Below are positions 1,054 through 5,045 of a stretch of DNA of 11,125 nt, one piece after another. How positions within the stretch are numbered: position 1 is the stretch's first letter; each line of letters begins with the position of its first letter. Origin of the DNA: a virus; UHGV virus genome UHGV-0137787, one strand, 5' to 3'. The notes below the pieces were generated by a model. It saw only the letters and a program-made list of their open reading frames with translations. It did not search any database and had not been told where the DNA came from. Made by a program: the position numbers and the translations under genes.

Positions 1054-2418
1054 TTAATAATCCTCTTGCCAGTCAGCACCAGCATAGTTATCAAATCGTG
1101 AATACTGGCCGTTAAAAGCCAATCTCACCGTGCCAATTGGGCCATTTCGTTGCTTACCAATAATCACCTCGGCAATGCCCTTCATTTCGCTATCCGGGTG
1201 ATAAACCTCGTCGCGATACAGAAACATGATCAGGTCTGCGTCCTGTTCAATTGCTCCTGATTCGCGCAAATCTGAATTTACCGGTCGTTTGTCCGCACGC
1301 TGTTCAAGCGATCGATTAAGTTGTGACAATGCCACCACCGGTACTTGTAATTCCTTCGCTAACGCCTTCAGTGAGCGAGAAATCTCGGCAATTTCCAGCG
1401 TTCGGTTATCTTGCAGCTCGGGGACACGCATAAGTTGCAGGTAGTCGATCATAATCATGCTCAATCCACCATTTTCTTTATAAACACGACGAGCGCGGGA
1501 ACGTAGCTCTGTAGGCGTCAGGGCGCTTGAGTCATCAATAAAAATATTCTGCTTGTCCAACAGAATCCCCATTGCGCCAGAAACACGCGCCCAATCCTCG
1601 TCGTTAAGTTGCCCCGTTCTAATACGAGTCTGATCAACGCGTGCAAGAGAGGCCAGTGAGCGCATCACCAGCTGGTGGCTCGGCATCTCAAGGCTAAAAA
1701 CCAATACGGGCTTATCGCTACGGACTGCGGCATTTTCGACAAGATTCATCGCAAATGTGGTCTTCCCCATAGACGGGCGGGCGGCGACAATAATGAGATC
1801 GGACGGCTGAAGCCCAGCCGTCTTCTTATTGAGATCGGTAAACCCGGTATCAATCCCCGTTACACCATCATGCGGTCGCTGAAACAACTCTTCGATGCGA
1901 GATACCGTCGCATCAAGAACGCTGGCGATGTCTTTTGGTCCACTCCCGCTCTTTTGTCGTTTTTCAGCTATTTCAAAAACGCGGCGCTCGGCCATATCCA
2001 GCAATTCATTGCTGCCCCGGCCATCCTGCGCATATCCAGCTTCGGCTATTTCATTTGCGACGGAAATCATTTCGCGAACAACCGCGCGTTCACGAACGAT
2101 ATCCGCATAAGCACAAATATTTGCCGCGCTGGGCGTGTTCTTTGACATCTCCGCAAGGTACGCAAAACCACCTGCACGTTCTAATTTACCGTTCTGTTCA
2201 AGTGCTTCAGCAAGCGTTATCAAATCAATCGGTTTGCCATGACTTAATAACCTCTCCATCTCACTGAAAATTTCACGATGAGCACTGGTATAAAAATCAT
2301 CAGCGACTACACGATCTGCAACTTCATCCCAGCGGTAGTTATCAAGCATTAAGCCACCAAGTACAGCTTGTTCTGCACTAAGTGAATTTGGCATGGATTC
2401 AAGAGGGGATGCAGACAT
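1054..2418 (-). CDS. ban: Replicative DNA helicase of the DnaB family, phage-borne analogue (P1 Ban-like), 454 aa
   Basis: Collinear with E. coli DnaB as I recall it across the whole length (Walker A PSMGKTTFAMN, plus IDYLQLM, RPVNSDLRESGAIEQDADLIMF, GKQRNGPIGTVRL) but with many substitutions. ATG at 2416-2418 is preceded by GGAGGA with a 6-nt spacer; the six-frame ORF starts two codons further up at a GTG. Symbol given from family plus P1-like context. Confidence 0.9.
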   Translation of the reverse strand: MSASPLESMPNSLSAEQAVLGGLMLDNYRWDEVADRVVADDFYTSAHREIFSEMERLLSHGKPIDLITLAEALEQNGKLERAGGFAYLAEMSKNTPSAANICAYADIVRERAVVREMISVANEIAEAGYAQDGRGSNELLDMAERRVFEIAEKRQKSGSGPKDIASVLDATVSRIEELFQRPHDGVTGIDTGFTDLNKKTAGLQPSDLIIVAARPSMGKTTFAMNLVENAAVRSDKPVLVFSLEMPSHQLVMRSLASLARVDQTRIRTGQLNDEDWARVSGAMGILLDKQNIFIDDSSALTPTELRSRARRVYKENGGLSMIMIDYLQLMRVPELQDNRTLEIAEISRSLKALAKELQVPVVALSQLNRSLEQRADKRPVNSDLRESGAIEQDADLIMFLYRDEVYHPDSEMKGIAEVIIGKQRNGPIGTVRLAFNGQYSRFDNYAGADWQEDY

Positions 2419-2698
2419 TAGCACTCCTCCAAGGCGTGCTGAATGTCAGATATAATCGGCATACTCAAATCACTCCTAACGATATGAGTCATCACCAGAA
2501 AATCAGGATTAATTCGCCGGACTCTTCCCGGCTGTCACACCGAATCGCCAGGATGGTGAATCCGCAGTCCGACGCTATGAACGGGGCTTGCACATTCCGG
2601 CTACCTGGTTCGTTGCCTGAGCTAGGGGCAAGGTTCCCCCTTTAACGTCACCAGACCGCTAACGACGCATGTGCCAGACGCCGTGTTACAACCAAATG

Positions 2699-2774
2699 TG
2701 GTGGCCCCTACCGGACTTGAACCGGTGACCGTGCGATTATGAGTCGCCAGCTCTAACCACTGAGCTAAAGGGCC
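2699..2774 (-). tRNA. tRNA with CAU anticodon, closest to tRNA-Ile2 (lysidine type, ileX-like); an elongator Met identity is not excluded
   Basis: Hand-folded cloverleaf: acceptor GGCCCTT/AGGGGCC, D-arm GCTC-AGTGGTTA-GAGC, anticodon loop CTCATAA, T-arm ACCGG-TTCAAGT-CCGGT, encoded CCA. Starts 3 nt after the upstream ORF stop. Confidence 0.85.
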
Positions 2775-2777
2775 GGA

Positions 2778-2885
2778 TTACTGTTTACTAAGTGCTTCAA
2801 TGGCGCTAACAATGCCGCCTACAACTATGGCAACAATGATAATGAGAACAATTGGATACTTGTCAGCAAAATCCCAGAAGCCCAT
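2778..2885 (-). CDS. Mini membrane protein, 35 aa (MGFWDFADKYPIVLIIIVAIVVGGIVSAIEALSKQ), TciC-like position
   Basis: Found by manual translation (below the six-frame cutoff). Its ATG overlaps the stop of the upstream ORF (TGATG); single predicted transmembrane helix. Confidence 0.4.
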   Translation of the reverse strand: MGFWDFADKYPIVLIIIVAIVVGGIVSAIEALSKQ

Positions 2886-3049
2886 CACTGATCCTTCGAA
2901 GCTGTTTTAAATATCGGCCATACCAATGTTACAGCTACTGCTACCAACGCACCGTCGGATAAAACCGACAGGACTGTGCTGGTGAAATCCACCAGCACAG
3001 ATAGCACGAGAAAAACCAAAGCCAGAATTAGACGTGCTTTTATAACCAT
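2885..3049 (-). CDS. Mini membrane protein, 54 aa (MVIKARLILALVFLVLSVLVDFTSTVLSVLSDGALVAVAVTLVWPIFKTASKDQ), TciB-like position
   Basis: Found by manual translation. Its ATG overlaps the TGA stop of the TerB-like gene (TGATG); strongly hydrophobic, probably two transmembrane segments. Confidence 0.45.
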   Translation of the reverse strand: MVIKARLILALVFLVLSVLVDFTSTVLSVLSDGALVAVAVTLVWPIFKTASKDQ

Positions 3050-3474
3050 CAGATATACTGTTCCAGTGGCAATTGAAGAGCCTGGGCAATTTTCTTCAAT
3101 TGCTCCTGCTCTTCTGCCCCAATGCCATCCTGGTCAGCAATATCAATGCATAGGCACAGAACATCTACCGCATCATTAGTCCCGGACACATCAGCCAGCT
3201 CACGTAAAGCCTGGGCATTAGCTCGGCGCGGCGAGGCTTCATATTGAGCGCGAATATTGGCGCTCATCTGGGCAATTTCACCGGAGAACGGCGCAAAGGC
3301 AGGAAGTGCTGCAATGGTTTTTTCCAATACTGCAATTTCTTTCGCATCGCAGGTGCCGTCAGAGTATGCAATGGAATATGCGCCCCAGACGGTCGCTTCC
3401 ACCGCATCACGGTTTTCCATCTTCTTGACTCCGCCAGCCGCTTTGCGGAATTTCTTTTTGAGAATGCCGAGCAT
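3049..3474 (-). CDS. tciA: TerB-like tellurite-resistance family protein (P1 TciA-like), 141 aa
   Basis: Size and composition consistent with the TerB family; RBS GAGG 7 nt before the ATG. Symbol is tentative and rests on context (adjacent to ban and the tRNAs, as recalled for P1). Confidence 0.7.
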   Translation of the reverse strand: MLGILKKKFRKAAGGVKKMENRDAVEATVWGAYSIAYSDGTCDAKEIAVLEKTIAALPAFAPFSGEIAQMSANIRAQYEASPRRANAQALRELADVSGTNDAVDVLCLCIDIADQDGIGAEEQEQLKKIAQALQLPLEQYI

Positions 3475-3616
3475 TTATTAACCTCATTACTGGTTGGGAA
3501 ATAAGGTTGCGGTGCCGGGTGCCTCCCGGTGTCCTTTGGCTGGTTATCTACCGTGGACGGGGAAACAAGGAGAAATGAATGGACTGATATAACCATTTCC
3601 CCGCGTGCGCTTAGCC

Positions 3617-3693
3617 GCATTCACCGCAACGGAAAGAGCATTCTTGGTGGACCTGTAGATTGGGATATGAACCCGTTACAGGAGAATGCTCTT
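3617..3693. repeat. Hairpin module A: GCATTCACC lead, 11-bp perfect inverted repeat (3634-3644 / 3683-3693) enclosing the conserved motif GTAGATTGGGATATGAACCCGTTAC (3655-3679)
   Basis: Direct inspection; paralogous to module B. Confidence 0.55.
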
Positions 3694-3877
3694 ACCTGTT
3701 GCGTACTCCGTTTCATGGAGCTAACGGCGGGGGATCAGACCGCACCAGACTGGACTTATTTCAGCGTTATGCTCATGCCAGAGAATCAAACTGTGATGGT
3801 CGGTGCTGAACTCCGACACAGGGTTGTAGCAAGCCCCGCAAAGCGCGCACTACTGTAGTTGCGGCACATCAGCCTGT

Positions 3878-3977
3878 GCATTCACCACAATGTTGAGAAC
3901 ACTGGTTGTCACGCTGCAACGCAACATTTATTCGTAGATTGGGATATGACCCCGTTACGCCAGTGTTCTCAACGTTG
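3878..3977. repeat. Hairpin module B: GCATTCACC lead, 18-bp inverted repeat (3888-3905 / 3960-3977, one G-U-compatible mismatch) enclosing GTAGATTGGGATATGACCCCGTTAC (3934-3958)
   Basis: Direct inspection. Loop motif is 24/25 identical to module A, while the stem arms have a different sequence but still pair. Confidence 0.55.
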
Positions 3978-4124
3978 TAGTGCCGGTTACGGTTCCGGCC
4001 AGGCCTCTTCCTCAACGGGGTGTTCTCCATACGGACTACCGTTTATTGGTCGTTCCTGCGGTTTATGTTGTGAAGCCAGATGCTTATCTTCTGGTTGCTT
4101 CTAAGAGCTGCACTTCATCACAAC

Positions 4125-4198
4125 GGTAAGGGTACTTCGTAGGGATTCGAACCCTCTGCCAAGCACAGCGATCTCCGACGTCGCAAAATACCCTTACC
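4125..4198 (-). pseudogene. tRNA-like remnant or non-canonical tRNA-like element bounded by a 10-bp terminal inverted repeat
   Basis: Contains a canonical T-arm (AGGG-TTCGAAT-CCCT) and a D-arm-like hairpin (GCGA-CGTCGGAGA-TCGC), but I could not fold a canonical cloverleaf; ends are GGTAAGGGTA / TACCCTTACC. Sits 8 nt downstream of tRNA-Thr. Confidence 0.3.
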
Positions 4199-4206
4199 TG
4201 TTGTGT

Positions 4207-4282
4207 TGGTGCCGGTTAACGGACTCGAACCGCTGACATCCTGCTTACAAGGCAGGCGTTCTACCAACTGAGCTAAACCGGC
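4207..4282 (-). tRNA. tRNA-Thr (anticodon UGU)
   Basis: Hand-folded: acceptor GCCGGTT/AACCGGC, anticodon stem CCTGC/GCAGG with loop CTTGTAA, T-loop TTCGAGT, encoded CCA; one C-A mismatch in the D-stem. Confidence 0.85.
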
Positions 4283-4284
4283 AT

Positions 4285-4360
4285 TGGCGATGGAGGATGG
4301 ATTTGAACCATCGACCCGTTGATTAACAGTCAACCGCTCTAACCGCTGAGCTACACCATC
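4285..4360 (-). tRNA. tRNA-Asn (anticodon GUU)
   Basis: Hand-folded: D-arm GCTC-AGCGGTTA-GAGC, anticodon stem GTTGA/TCAAC with loop CTGTTAA, T-arm GATGG-TTCAAAT-CCATC, encoded CCA; one mismatch in the acceptor stem. Only 2 nt separate it from tRNA-Thr. Confidence 0.85.
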
Positions 4361-4825
4361 ACTTGCCGGGTACGTCTCCGGCGAGGGCTTCCACCTCCGT
4401 ATGCTTTTCGGCGCCCGCGCCCTGGCTGAAATTCGGTAACAGGGGATGCATAACCCTGGCTTCCAGCGTGATTAGCGCCTTCAGCATGACGGGATATACC
4501 CGTTACAAGAAATTATCCCAGGATGCCATTAAGCAATGGCTGTTACGCTGAATGAAAAAGGACGTAACAGGTAAGGACGCTGACCAAAGAGATGGCCCCT
4601 TCTCGCTCATCTGGTTAATCGAACCAGCGCCCTTGCCTGTTATGCCTCCCCGTTCCCTAATACACAGACGGGGACACTCTGCGGTCGATTTTTTGACGGG
4701 GGACGACTCATACCCCGTGGCGTCAGGCTTCTTAGGCCGCTACCATCATCAGATCATCGTTTGCATTTACTTTAATGGTCAGTTTATAAACCGCCGCAAA
4801 GTCGCTAACCATGACGAAAACCCTG

Positions 4826-4850
4826 AAAAAACGCCCACCCGAAGATGGGC
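4826..4850 (-). terminator. Intrinsic (Rho-independent) terminator on the minus strand
   Basis: Minus strand reads GCCCAUC-UUCG-GGUGGGC followed by G and six U: a 7-bp GC-rich stem with a UUCG tetraloop. The plus strand has no T-run, so it is unidirectional. Confidence 0.65.
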
Positions 4851-5017
4851 AAACTGGATGAACAGATCGTTAGGCATTTCGGTGTCGCCACTTAGGTGCA
4901 TGGTCAACCTGGCAACTCGGTGGCCATGTGGGCGGAGTAACCCAGCCATGCTTACCGCCGCGCCTATCGCGGGTAATAACTCAATCCGCTTTATAAATCC
5001 CGTTTCATTGAAACAAT

Positions 5018-5045
5018 ATTACTCTAATAAATTTATTAGAGCAAT
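5018..5045. promoter_or_regulatory. Palindromic pair of overlapping P1 C1-repressor operator-like 17-mers
   Basis: Minus-strand site at 5029-5045 reads ATTGCTCTAATAAATTT, 17/17 against the C1 operator consensus as I recall it; plus-strand site at 5018-5034 reads ATTACTCTAATAAATTT (16/17). Together they form the perfect palindrome CTCTAATAAATTTATTAGAG, which overlaps the dmt stop codon. Confidence 0.6.

What the first reader, a model, noticed from the sequence alone, without database searches (positions are those of the whole stretch)
2778..3474. TerB-like gene followed by two tiny hydrophobic ORFs joined by TGATG stop-start overlaps
Manual translation uncovers 54-aa and 35-aa membrane peptides missed by the six-frame track. 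Each starts on the stop codon of the gene before it, and the last ends 3 nt before tRNA-Ile. The arrangement looks like a small membrane-acting module (cell-division inhibition, envelope stress or a toxin-like function) coupled to a TerB-family protein. Peptides this small are routinely missed by annotation.
Basis: seen in the sequence. Interest (0 to 1): 0.6.

Follow-up and report, generated by a model that had tools for sequence, protein, structure and literature searches.

The report
Phage P1 tciA-tciB-tciC operon
This is the already annotated tciA-tciB-tciC gene trio of a P1-like phage-plasmid: a TerB-type protein followed by two tiny membrane peptides, real and conserved, but still with no experimentally tested function.

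Summary
On the minus strand lie a 141-aa TerB-family gene (3474-3049), a 54-aa ORF (3049-2885) and a 35-aa ORF (2885-2778). They are joined by two TGATG stop/start overlaps and end 3 nt before a tRNA(CAU) that is tRNA-Ile2.

It is not new. The window is 97% identical to phage P1 and SJ46, whose records annotate these genes as tciA, tciB and tciC, followed by trnI and ban. TciB is Pfam DUF3927, and all three proteins have PHROG families.

Comparison with 97 related loci and 16 phage lineages shows that the conserved unit is TerB plus a coupled small membrane protein. It occurs in P1-like, lambdoid, SSU5-like, N4-like, jumbo and Pseudomonas phages. TciC is confined to P1/P7/D6-like elements.

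The context points to expression in the lytic cycle: the C1-repressed Pban promoter in P1, and the slot between Q and the holin in lambdoid prophages. That argues against lysogenic conversion.

My working model, which is inferred and not shown, is that TciB is the membrane partner of a cytoplasmic, cation-binding TciA. I found no evidence for a toxin or for cell-division inhibition. A published CRISPRi screen calls all three genes non-essential.

Verdict: already known, low interest, function open.

The parts
3049..3474 (-). tciA: 141-aa cytoplasmic TerB-family protein, 100% identical to P1 TciA
2885..3049 (-). tciB: 54-aa DUF3927 membrane peptide; its ATG overlaps the tciA stop (TGATG)
   Evidence: ORF. 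Pfam PF13064, E = 2.6e-29. PHROG 1470. 96% identical to P1 TciB. Two hydrophobic peaks around a polar centre, D21...D32-G33. dN/dS 0.23-0.37 against P1, P7 and D6.
2778..2885 (-). tciC: 35-aa single-pass membrane peptide; its ATG overlaps the tciB stop (TGATG); AAGGA Shine-Dalgarno inside tciB
   Evidence: ORF. PHROG 23152, E = 9e-25. Intact in all 52 P1/P7/D6-like loci. An unannotated D6 homologue has a conserved N-terminus, M-x-F-W-x-[FY]-x-D-K-x-P.
2699..2774 (-). trnI: tRNA-Ile2 (anticodon CAU), starting 3 nt after the tciC stop
   Evidence: ARAGORN and Rfam. 89.5% identical to chromosomal tRNA-Ile in 5,426/5,426 E. coli genomes. P1 annotation.
5018..5045 (.). Bivalent C1 repressor operator of Pban, the only annotated promoter upstream of tciABC on this strand
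   Evidence: Two overlapping matches to ATTGCTCTAATAAATTT with 0 and 1 mismatch; 0 of 200 shuffles give 3 matches. Corresponds to Obanab in the P1 record.
4207..4360 (-). tRNA-Thr and tRNA-Asn, upstream members of the same minus-strand transcription unit
1054..2424 (-). ban (DnaB-type helicase), downstream member of the same transcription unit
   Evidence: Pfam DnaB_C, E = 5e-108. P1 annotation.

Best explanation
Identity (shown): this is the tciA-tciB-tciC cassette of a P1-like phage-plasmid. It lies in the ban transcription unit, in the order Pban/C1 operator, tRNA-Asn, tRNA-Thr, tciA, tciB, tciC, tRNA-Ile2, ban, dbn.

Anatomy (shown): TciA is a soluble all-helical TerB-fold protein with two ADG....E motifs and a basic N-terminus. 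TciB is a DUF3927 peptide with two hydrophobic segments around a conserved polar centre. TciC is a single-pass peptide. The three are linked by overlapping stop/start codons.

Mechanism (inferred): TciA and TciB are made together by translational coupling and act as a two-piece, membrane-associated TerB unit. TciB serves as the inner-membrane partner or anchor of TciA. This would be a minimal counterpart of the TerB-TerC pairing of ter operons. The unit would act during lytic development, buffering or sensing an ionic or envelope perturbation of the infected cell. It would not confer tellurite resistance on a lysogen. TciC is a lineage-specific accessory peptide of P1/P7/D6-like phages. RNase P cleavage at the tRNA would cut the message 3 nt after the tciC stop.

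Confidence by step: identity about 0.97; 'TerB plus obligatory small membrane partner' about 0.6; lytic-phase role about 0.55; specific biochemical activity below 0.3. The single figure given (0.55) is for the statement as a whole.
For: Identity:
- 96.8-97.5% nucleotide identity over the whole query to P1, SJ46 and JL22, whose records annotate tciA, tciB, tciC and trnI.
- TciA is 100% and TciB 96% identical to P1.
- C1 operators lie at 5018-5045.

TerB fold.

Coupled membrane partner:
- In 95/97 loci recovered through TciB, a TerB ORF lies directly upstream, ending at or just inside the TciB ORF; printed junctions are TGATG, TAATG or GTGA overlaps, one locus (L023) unclear.
- Among 16 phage lineages sampled through TerB, 10 have a DUF3927 peptide directly downstream: window/P1, P7, D6, Fostie, JLK-2012, UTK0002, Pollock, Asesino, nickie and LIET2.
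- Three Pseudomonas phages (Zuri, AF, Lana) have an unrelated 1-TM protein of about 70 aa directly after the TerB stop instead. It overlaps the stop (GTGA/ATGA) in AF and Lana. In Zuri it starts 5 nt after the TerB stop, with no overlap.
- Only 3 lineages have neither. One of these, BUCT194, carries terC next door.
- TciB has no good Shine-Dalgarno of its own, which fits reinitiation.
- TerB is reported as an interaction partner of the membrane protein TerC (Turkovicova 2016, as cited in PMC11003894).

Lytic-phase context:
- Pban is C1-repressed.
- In Klebsiella and E. coli lambdoid prophages the pair sits between antiterminator Q and the holin genes.
- It also occurs in strictly lytic N4-like and jumbo phages.

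Expression:
- TciA peptides were seen by mass spectrometry (PMC9024508).
- tciA/B/C transcripts were seen in P1vir infection (bioRxiv 10.64898/2025.12.28.696737).

Membrane theme of the slot: P1-like phages that lack tciABC carry an SPFH/Band_7 protein at the same position.
Against: - No experiment addresses function. CRISPRi knock-down gives no plaque phenotype.
- No physical TciA-TciB interaction is shown, and I could not co-fold them.
- AF2 predicts monomeric TciB as one continuous 52-residue helix, not a hairpin, so the topology is unresolved.
- No natural TerB-DUF3927 fusions exist apart from frameshift artefacts.
- Three TerB lineages do without any small partner.
- In many EHEC-type prophages TerB is a pseudogene while TciB stays intact. 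This fits poorly with a strictly obligate pair.
- tciC evolves almost neutrally between the two P1-type alleles (dN/dS 0.89 on only 12 substitutions).
- Adjacency and overlap can also arise from simple operon compaction.
Confidence: 0.55

Rival explanations
1. Lysogenic-conversion reading, as in the database label: tciABC is a reduced ter system that gives the P1 lysogen resistance to tellurite, pore-forming colicins or superinfecting phages.
For: TciA belongs to the TerB family. ter operons are associated with tellurite, phage and colicin resistance. The cassette is one of eight variable cargo regions of P1-like phage-plasmids and is absent from about half of subgroup 1 (PMC9603915). This behaviour is typical of accessory or defence genes. 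Reviews repeat the idea.
Against: There is no TerC, TerD, TerE or TerZ in the window or in the P1 region. The only annotated upstream promoter is repressed by C1 in lysogens. The same TerB+TciB pair occurs in obligately lytic N4-like and jumbo phages and in the late operon of lambdoid prophages. There are no PADLOC hits. No resistance phenotype has been reported, and PMC6799933 states it remains to be tested.
Confidence: 0.2
2. One reading: TciB and/or TciC are membrane-damaging or cell-division-blocking peptides (toxin-, holin- or Kil-like), and TciA modulates them.
For: Both peptides are very hydrophobic and small. TciB carries conserved acidic residues in its hydrophobic span. The same operon contains a region the P1 record calls 'dicF-like'. 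In lambdoid prophages the pair lies immediately upstream of the holin genes.
Against: There is no similarity to any holin, toxin or division-inhibitor family in Pfam, PHROGs, NCBIfam or PADLOC. The invariant partner is a TerB protein, not an antitoxin-like gene or an antisense RNA. The promoter-like count in the region is not above chance (1 found against 2.8 expected). The pair is intact in thousands of Klebsiella chromosomes. Knock-down has no effect on plaque formation.
Confidence: 0.15
3. tciC is not a functional gene. It is an open frame kept by chance or by constraints on the spacer between tciB and the tRNA, and only tciA and tciB encode functional products.
For: No homologues were found outside P1/P7/D6-like elements. 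There is no Pfam family. dN/dS is 0.89 between the window and P1 alleles. A 35-codon open frame has about a 19% chance of being open in random sequence (my calculation, (61/64)^35).
Against: The frame is intact in 52/52 fetched P1/P7/D6-like loci and in the window. It has its own AAGGA Shine-Dalgarno and a start overlapping the tciB stop. In D6, where synonymous sites are saturated, the frame, its length (36 aa), the TGATG junction, the N-terminal motif, a hydrophobic core and a basic tail are all retained. Amino-acid changes between alleles are almost all hydrophobic-for-hydrophobic.
Confidence: 0.15

Closest known systems
tciA-tciB-tciC of bacteriophage P1 (GenBank AF234172/NC_005856), with equivalents terB-upf69.4-upf69.6 of P7
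   Same: Same genes, same order, same TGATG junctions, same neighbours (upl/plp upstream, trnI and ban downstream, Pban C1 operator). TciA is 100% and TciB 96% identical.
   Different: TciC is a different allele: 77% identical to P1 TciC, with 8 of 35 residues changed. It is identical to an allele seen in 8 other loci.
TerB of the terZABCDE tellurite-resistance operons (IncHI2 plasmids, EHEC O-islands, Klebsiella) and its TerB-TerC pairing
   Same: Pfam TerB membership and fold. Two ADG....E motifs. Association with a membrane protein encoded next to it; the TerB-TerC interaction is cited in PMC11003894.
   Different: There is no TerC, TerD, TerE, TerZ or TerA here. The membrane partner is a peptide of about 54 aa rather than the multi-pass TerC. 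Sequence similarity is low: phmmer finds no solved TerB in the PDB. The phenotype is untested.
Membrane-tethered TerB-like domains of DjlA and YebE/DUF533 (from my own knowledge of CDD/Pfam classification; not tested here)
   Same: A TerB-like domain held at the cytoplasmic face of the inner membrane by a transmembrane segment. This is the architecture I propose for TciA+TciB, split into two chains.
   Different: In those proteins the anchor and the domain are one polypeptide. No natural TerB-DUF3927 fusion was found other than frameshift artefacts.
SPFH/Band_7 cargo at the same slot in other P1-like phages (RCS47, Ro157c2YLVW)
   Same: Occupies exactly the same position and strand between upl/plp and trnI. 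It is also an inner-membrane-associated protein family.
   Different: Unrelated in sequence and fold. It is one 275-aa protein rather than three small ones.

Membership tests
P1 tciABC cassette (Punavirus ban transcription unit) | Near-identical sequence to the annotated tciA, tciB and tciC genes | tested here: met
   96.8-97.5% nucleotide identity over 100% of the query. TciA 100%, TciB 96%, TciC 77%.
P1 tciABC cassette (Punavirus ban transcription unit) | Synteny: Pban/C1 operator, tRNA-Asn, tRNA-Thr, (upl/plp opposite strand), tciABC, trnI, ban, dbn | tested here: met
TerB family (Pfam PF05099) | Profile score above the curated gathering threshold | tested here: met
   28.4 bits against 24.4. 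The margin is narrow, and the best stretch covers only residues 11-57.
TerB family (Pfam PF05099) | TerB-type all-helical fold | tested here: met
Complete ter tellurite-resistance system | Presence of terC and terD/terE/terZ alongside terB | tested here: not met
   None among the window ORFs or in the annotated P1 region.
Complete ter tellurite-resistance system | Confers tellurite, colicin or phage resistance | not testable with these tools
   No experiment was found in the literature held.
DUF3927 (Pfam PF13064) | Full-length profile match | tested here: met
   E = 2.6e-29, 101.4 bits, profile positions 1-53 of 53. The family has 155 clusters at 50% identity in 1.84 billion representatives, and nearly all members are 48-65 aa.
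Holins, membrane toxins, type I toxin-antitoxin | Similarity to a known holin or toxin family, or an antisense RNA/antitoxin partner | tested here: not met
   No such hit in Pfam, PHROGs, NCBIfam or PADLOC. Rfam finds only tRNAs. Promoter-like sites are not above chance. Toxicity itself is not testable here.
tRNA-Ile2 (lysidine-modified CAU) | Close similarity to ileX/ileY rather than to tRNA-Met genes | tested here: met
   89.5% identical over 76/76 nt to the chromosomal gene annotated as tRNA-Ile in every E. coli genome. The acceptor-stem C4-G69 and C5-G68 pairs are present in the sequence; their role as TilS determinants is from my own knowledge.

The most novel reading that the evidence does not exclude
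The P1 genes are one instance of a widespread, uncharacterised phage module: a stand-alone TerB protein translationally coupled to a mini membrane protein. That partner is either the DUF3927 peptide or, in Pseudomonas phages, an unrelated 1-TM 'CxWYGYQTER' protein. The module is used during lytic growth by P1-like, lambdoid, SSU5-like, N4-like, jumbo and other phages of Proteobacteria. The small peptide would replace TerC as the membrane partner. The module would perform a common, still unknown task at the inner membrane of the infected cell, such as ion or metal homeostasis, control of lysis timing, or evasion of a membrane-triggered defence.
Probability: 0.35. Interest if true: 0.5.

Novelty: already known. 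Interest (0 to 1): 0.2.

Why it matters
As a discovery it matters little. The genes, their overlaps and the adjacent tRNA are in the P1 record and in Pfam and PHROGs.

What remains open is their function. [quoted passage not shown]

The comparison made here narrows that question in four ways:
- The unit to study is TerB plus its coupled membrane peptide.
- The unit is shared by very different phages, including strictly lytic ones.
- Its regulatory context points to the lytic cycle.
- A tellurite-resistance role for lysogens is unlikely.

This gives a concrete and cheap set of experiments in the best-known transducing phage of E. coli.

Tried and rejected
- PADLOC and NCBIfam gave no match for any of the three proteins.
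- The PDB sequence search with TciA found no solved TerB. It gave only sub-threshold EF-hand/centrin matches (E = 0.14 or worse) caused by the DxDG...E motifs, which I do not read as homology.
- tblastn with TciB and TciC against phages recovered only P1-like records, because the low-complexity filter masks hydrophobic peptides. I replaced this with TerB-anchored sampling and local HMM searches.
- The search for related loci with the 10-sequence TciB alignment failed for lack of a conserved stretch. It was repeated with 5 sequences.
- I searched for natural TerB-DUF3927 fusions as interaction evidence. P0129 (196 aa), P0260, P0296 and P0330 are frameshift or chimeric artefacts, so they were rejected as evidence.
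- AF2 of TciB gave one long helix (pTM 0.44) and does not settle the topology.
- The P1 paper of 2004 (PMC523184) is not held.
- The promoter and terminator scan of 2300-5200 gave counts at or below chance, so I make no claim of an internal promoter. Rfam did not call DicF in the region the P1 record labels 'dicF-like'.
- I considered that the recurrent neighbourhood of tRNA genes has a functional meaning (tRNAs within 3 kb in 80/97 loci). I regard it as a shared cargo slot. The loci are highly redundant, and 17 non-P1-like loci have no tRNA.

Full report
**1. What is in the sequence**

Reading the minus strand of 2690-3540 shows three consecutive ORFs:
- a 141-aa ORF at 3474->3049;
- a 54-aa ORF at 3049->2885;
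- a 35-aa ORF at 2885->2778, which ORF listing reports as 36 aa from the GTG one codon upstream.

Both junctions read TGATG, so the A of the stop TGA is the A of the next ATG.

The last stop, TAA at 2780-2778, is followed by three bases and then a 76-nt tRNA at 2774->2699. ARAGORN names this tRNA Met because its anticodon is CAT. It is, however, 89.5% identical over its full length to the chromosomal gene annotated as tRNA-Ile in all 5,426 complete E. coli genomes. The P1 record calls it tRNA-Ile2.

The translation signals differ between the three genes. The first gene has a GAGG Shine-Dalgarno. The second has none worth the name. The third has AAGGA inside the end of the second.

**2. What it is**

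The stretch 2600-3600 is 97.5% identical to Salmonella phage SJ46. It is 96.8-96.9% identical to phage P1, JL22 and vB_EcoM-673R5 over its whole length. Those records annotate tciA, tciB, tciC and trnI under the match.

In P1 the order is as follows: Pban with a bivalent C1 operator, a 'dicF-like region', tRNA-Asn, tRNA-Thr, upl and plp on the other strand, tciA, tciB, tciC, trnI, ban, dbn.

The window has the same parts:
- C1 operator matches at 5018-5034 and 5029-5045;
- tRNA-Asn and tRNA-Thr at 4207-4360;
- a DnaB-type helicase at 1054-2424 and a Dmt-type methyltransferase at 5036-7576.

TciA is 100% identical to P1 TciA, and TciB is 96% identical. TciC is a different allele from P1, with 8 of 35 residues changed, but it is identical to an allele present in 8 other loci.

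The family matches are:
- TciA meets Pfam TerB narrowly, at 28.4 bits against a cut-off of 24.4.
- TciB is a full-length DUF3927 (E = 2.6e-29).
- TciC has no Pfam family.
- All three have PHROG families.

The finding is thus an already annotated operon, not a set of overlooked peptides.

**3. What the literature says**

No functional experiment was found. The findings were:
- A genome-wide CRISPRi screen scores tciA, tciB, tciC, trnI and ban as non-essential for P1 (PMC10695390).
- A survey of P1-like phage-plasmids lists tciABC among eight highly variable regions. It reports that nearly half of subgroup 1 has lost it (PMC9603915).
- TciA yielded two peptides in a mass-spectrometric analysis of virion preparations and was set aside as non-structural (PMC9024508).
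- An RNA-seq preprint lists the genes among those misregulated in an hfq host.
- A paper on D6-like prophages says the predicted resistances remain to be tested (PMC6799933).
- The 2004 P1 genome paper is not in the library.

**4. Is TciA really TerB-like?**

A sequence search of the PDB finds no solved TerB, only sub-threshold EF-hand matches.

An AlphaFold2 model built on 26 homologues is confident: mean pLDDT 84.9, pTM 0.80, six helices, and a disordered basic N-terminus at residues 1-14.

Thirteen phage homologues share three features despite identities down to about 30%:
- the basic N-terminus, M-[FL]-G-x-[FL]-..-K-K;
- an ENRD-type motif;
- two ADG....E motifs.

TerB-family membership is supported. 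Membership of a complete ter system is not, because no terC, terD, terE or terZ is present.

**5. The conserved unit is TerB plus a coupled small membrane protein**

tblastn with TciA finds 128 phage records. They include P1-like phages, lambdoid and other temperate enterobacterial phages, SSU5-like phage-plasmids, N4-like podophages of Escherichia, Salmonella, Shigella, Vibrio and Pseudomonas, Erwinia jumbo phages and several Pseudomonas and Pantoea phages.

I inspected 16 lineages.

- **Ten have a DUF3927-type peptide of 51-60 aa that starts at or within a few bases of the TerB stop.** These are the window/P1, P7, D6, Fostie, JLK-2012, UTK0002, Pollock, Asesino, nickie and LIET2. They share the motif D-F-[TS]-S-x-x-[ML]-S-x-L-[AS]-D-G-x-L-V ... 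W-P-x-x-K.
- **Three Pseudomonas phages (Zuri, AF, Lana) have an unrelated protein of about 70 aa instead.** It has one N-terminal transmembrane segment and a conserved C-x-W-Y-G-Y-Q-T-[ED]-R domain. It overlaps the TerB stop (GTGA or ATGA) in AF and Lana. In Zuri it starts 5 nt after the stop, with no overlap.
- **Three have no such partner** (PMBT3, Vibrio D517, Vibrio BUCT194). BUCT194 carries a second terB and a terC immediately upstream.

Searching from the other side gave the same picture. Ninety-seven loci were recovered through TciB: 17 from species-representative genomes and 80 from IMG/VR. A local HMM search on them showed:
- a TerB ORF lying directly upstream and ending at or just inside the TciB ORF in 95 loci; the junctions printed are TGATG, TAATG or GTGA overlaps, with one locus (L023) where the form is unclear;
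- two exceptions, both truncated remnants.

These loci are far from independent, because many are near-identical prophages.

DUF3927 is a small family. It has 155 clusters at 50% identity among 1.84 billion representatives, and almost all members are stand-alone proteins of 48-65 aa. The few longer members are frameshift or chimeric artefacts. There is therefore no fusion evidence for an interaction.

**6. TciC**

A TciC-like ORF was found only in P1/P7/D6-like loci (52 of 97), always directly after TciB with a TGATG junction. Elsewhere TciB is followed by a GC-rich hairpin.

All 52 copies are intact.

Between the window allele and the P1 allele there are 9 non-synonymous and 3 synonymous differences. 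That gives dN/dS 0.89, from very few sites. Nearly all the changes swap one hydrophobic residue for another.

D6 carries an unannotated 36-aa homologue, MDFWTYIDKNPGWSLLFLLVIVYGVEQVAKNLRRRK. It has the same junction, the same N-terminal motif, a hydrophobic core and a basic tail. A tRNA(CAU) follows 9 nt downstream.

I conclude that tciC is probably a real gene for a single-pass peptide. By the positive-inside rule the N-terminus would be outside and the basic C-terminus inside. That orientation is an inference. The constraint seems to act mainly on composition, and a residual doubt remains (rival 3).

**7. When is it expressed?**

- In P1 the only annotated promoter upstream on this strand is Pban, which is repressed by C1.
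- My consensus scan finds no promoter in front of tciA, and counts are not above chance.
- In Klebsiella and E. coli lambdoid prophages the pair sits between the antiterminator Q gene and the holin/endolysin genes. In EHEC-type prophages it lies just after the tRNA(CAU)-Arg-Arg cluster.
- In N4-like phages it lies among nucleotide-metabolism genes.
- In Erwinia jumbo phages it lies among tRNA genes at the genome end.

Taken together, and given its presence in strictly lytic phages, this points to a role in the infected cell. It argues against a lysogenic-conversion function. This is an inference from context, because no transcript was mapped here.

**8. Mechanism proposed, and its status**

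Shown:
- a TerB-fold soluble protein;
- a directly following small hydrophobic protein, with overlapping or abutting stop and start codons in most lineages;
- conservation of that pairing across distant phages, with two unrelated kinds of membrane partner.

Established elsewhere: TerB is reported to interact with the integral membrane protein TerC (Turkovicova 2016, as cited in PMC11003894).

Inferred:
- TciB, and the 1-TM protein in Pseudomonas phages, is the membrane partner that holds or regulates TciA at the cytoplasmic face of the inner membrane.
- The coupling secures joint synthesis.
- The conserved acidic residues of TciB (D21, D32) and the ADG....E motifs of TciA suggest cation binding.

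The biochemical activity is unknown.

The topology of TciB is unresolved. Hydropathy shows two hydrophobic peaks around a polar centre, but AF2 gives a single long helix.

One observation fits the membrane theme. P1-like phages that lack tciABC carry an SPFH/Band_7 protein at exactly the same slot.

Two observations go against an obligate pair. TerB is a pseudogene next to an intact TciB in many EHEC-type prophages, and three lineages have no partner at all.

**9. Verdict**

Novelty: already known. Interest is low.

The open item of some value is the untested function of a TerB-plus-mini-membrane-protein pair that is shared by many unrelated phages.

Noticed in passing
L112:3704-4531 (RCS47) and L113:3703-4747 (Ro157c2YLVW); corresponds to window 2783-3480: P1-like phages without tciABC carry a 275-aa SPFH/Band_7 protein at the very same slot, between upl/plp and trnI on the same strand. 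Pfam PF01145 gives E = 1e-30; the records annotate it as 'putative serine protease'. In L113 it is preceded by an overlapping 78-aa ORF. Homology to the window breaks at about 2783, inside the last codons of tciC. The slot therefore holds exchangeable cargo, and both versions are membrane-associated.
   Followed up: partly
L083-L110 (IMG/VR E. coli prophage loci), e.g. L085:2560-2998: In many EHEC-type lambdoid prophages the TerB gene upstream of an intact TciB is a pseudogene. It has a frameshift in an A-run near codon 7 plus an in-frame TAG. The pair lies directly after a tRNA(CAU)-tRNA-Arg-tRNA-Arg cluster. From my own knowledge, this is the position the stx genes occupy in Stx phages.
   Followed up: partly
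L005:2578-2688 and L005:2698-2773 (phage D6, MF356679): The D6 record annotates neither the tciC homologue (36 aa) nor the tRNA(CAU) that follows it. It also gives the three upstream tRNAs on the opposite strand to the one ARAGORN finds.
   Followed up: yes
L002 (P7) against L001 (P1) and L005 (D6); window 2885-3474: P7 carries the D6-type terB, which is only 31% identical to P1 TciA. Its tciB has a non-P1 N-terminal third and a P1-like remainder, and its tciC is identical to P1's. A recombination junction therefore lies inside tciB. Two very different TerB alleles serve with nearly the same TciB and TciC.
   Followed up: partly
window 2600-2697 (between trnI and ban): This non-coding stretch just 3' of the tRNA is 88% identical to an unannotated region of 12 Stx2c-converting phages. 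No tRNA lies nearby in the one fetched (L111). Its nature is unknown.
   Followed up: partly
window 4832-4851 (minus strand) and about 4818-4919: A terminator-like hairpin with a T-run lies between Pban and tRNA-Asn, inside the part that corresponds to the 'dicF-like region' of the P1 record. Rfam at gathering threshold does not call DicF there. Transcription from Pban would have to read through it to reach the tRNAs, tciABC and ban.
   Followed up: no
window 8827-8843: A third C1-operator match (1 mismatch) on the minus strand, upstream of the 308-aa RdgC-family gene region.
   Followed up: no
L012:2443-2646 (Zuri), L117:1632-1853 (AF), L118:1638-1853 (Lana): Pseudomonas phages have a different small protein directly after their TerB gene; it overlaps the TerB stop in AF and Lana. 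It is about 70 aa, with one N-terminal transmembrane segment and a conserved C-x-W-Y-G-Y-Q-T-[ED]-R-x-x-[KR]-Y-A...V-G-C-M-V domain. It is unrelated to DUF3927.
   Followed up: partly
L010:424-1895 (Vibrio phage BUCT194): This N4-like Vibrio phage encodes a second TerB and a TerC/Alx-family membrane protein immediately upstream of its TciA-like TerB, and it has no DUF3927 peptide.
   Followed up: no
window 3474-3530 and 3529-4104 (plus strand): The upl and plp genes are transcribed against the tci/ban direction, and the P1 record places the predicted upl promoters inside the 5' end of tciA. A Pban transcript must therefore run antisense through upl and plp before reaching tciA. The plp-like ORF in the window (81 aa) is shorter than P1 Plp (125 aa).
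   Followed up: no
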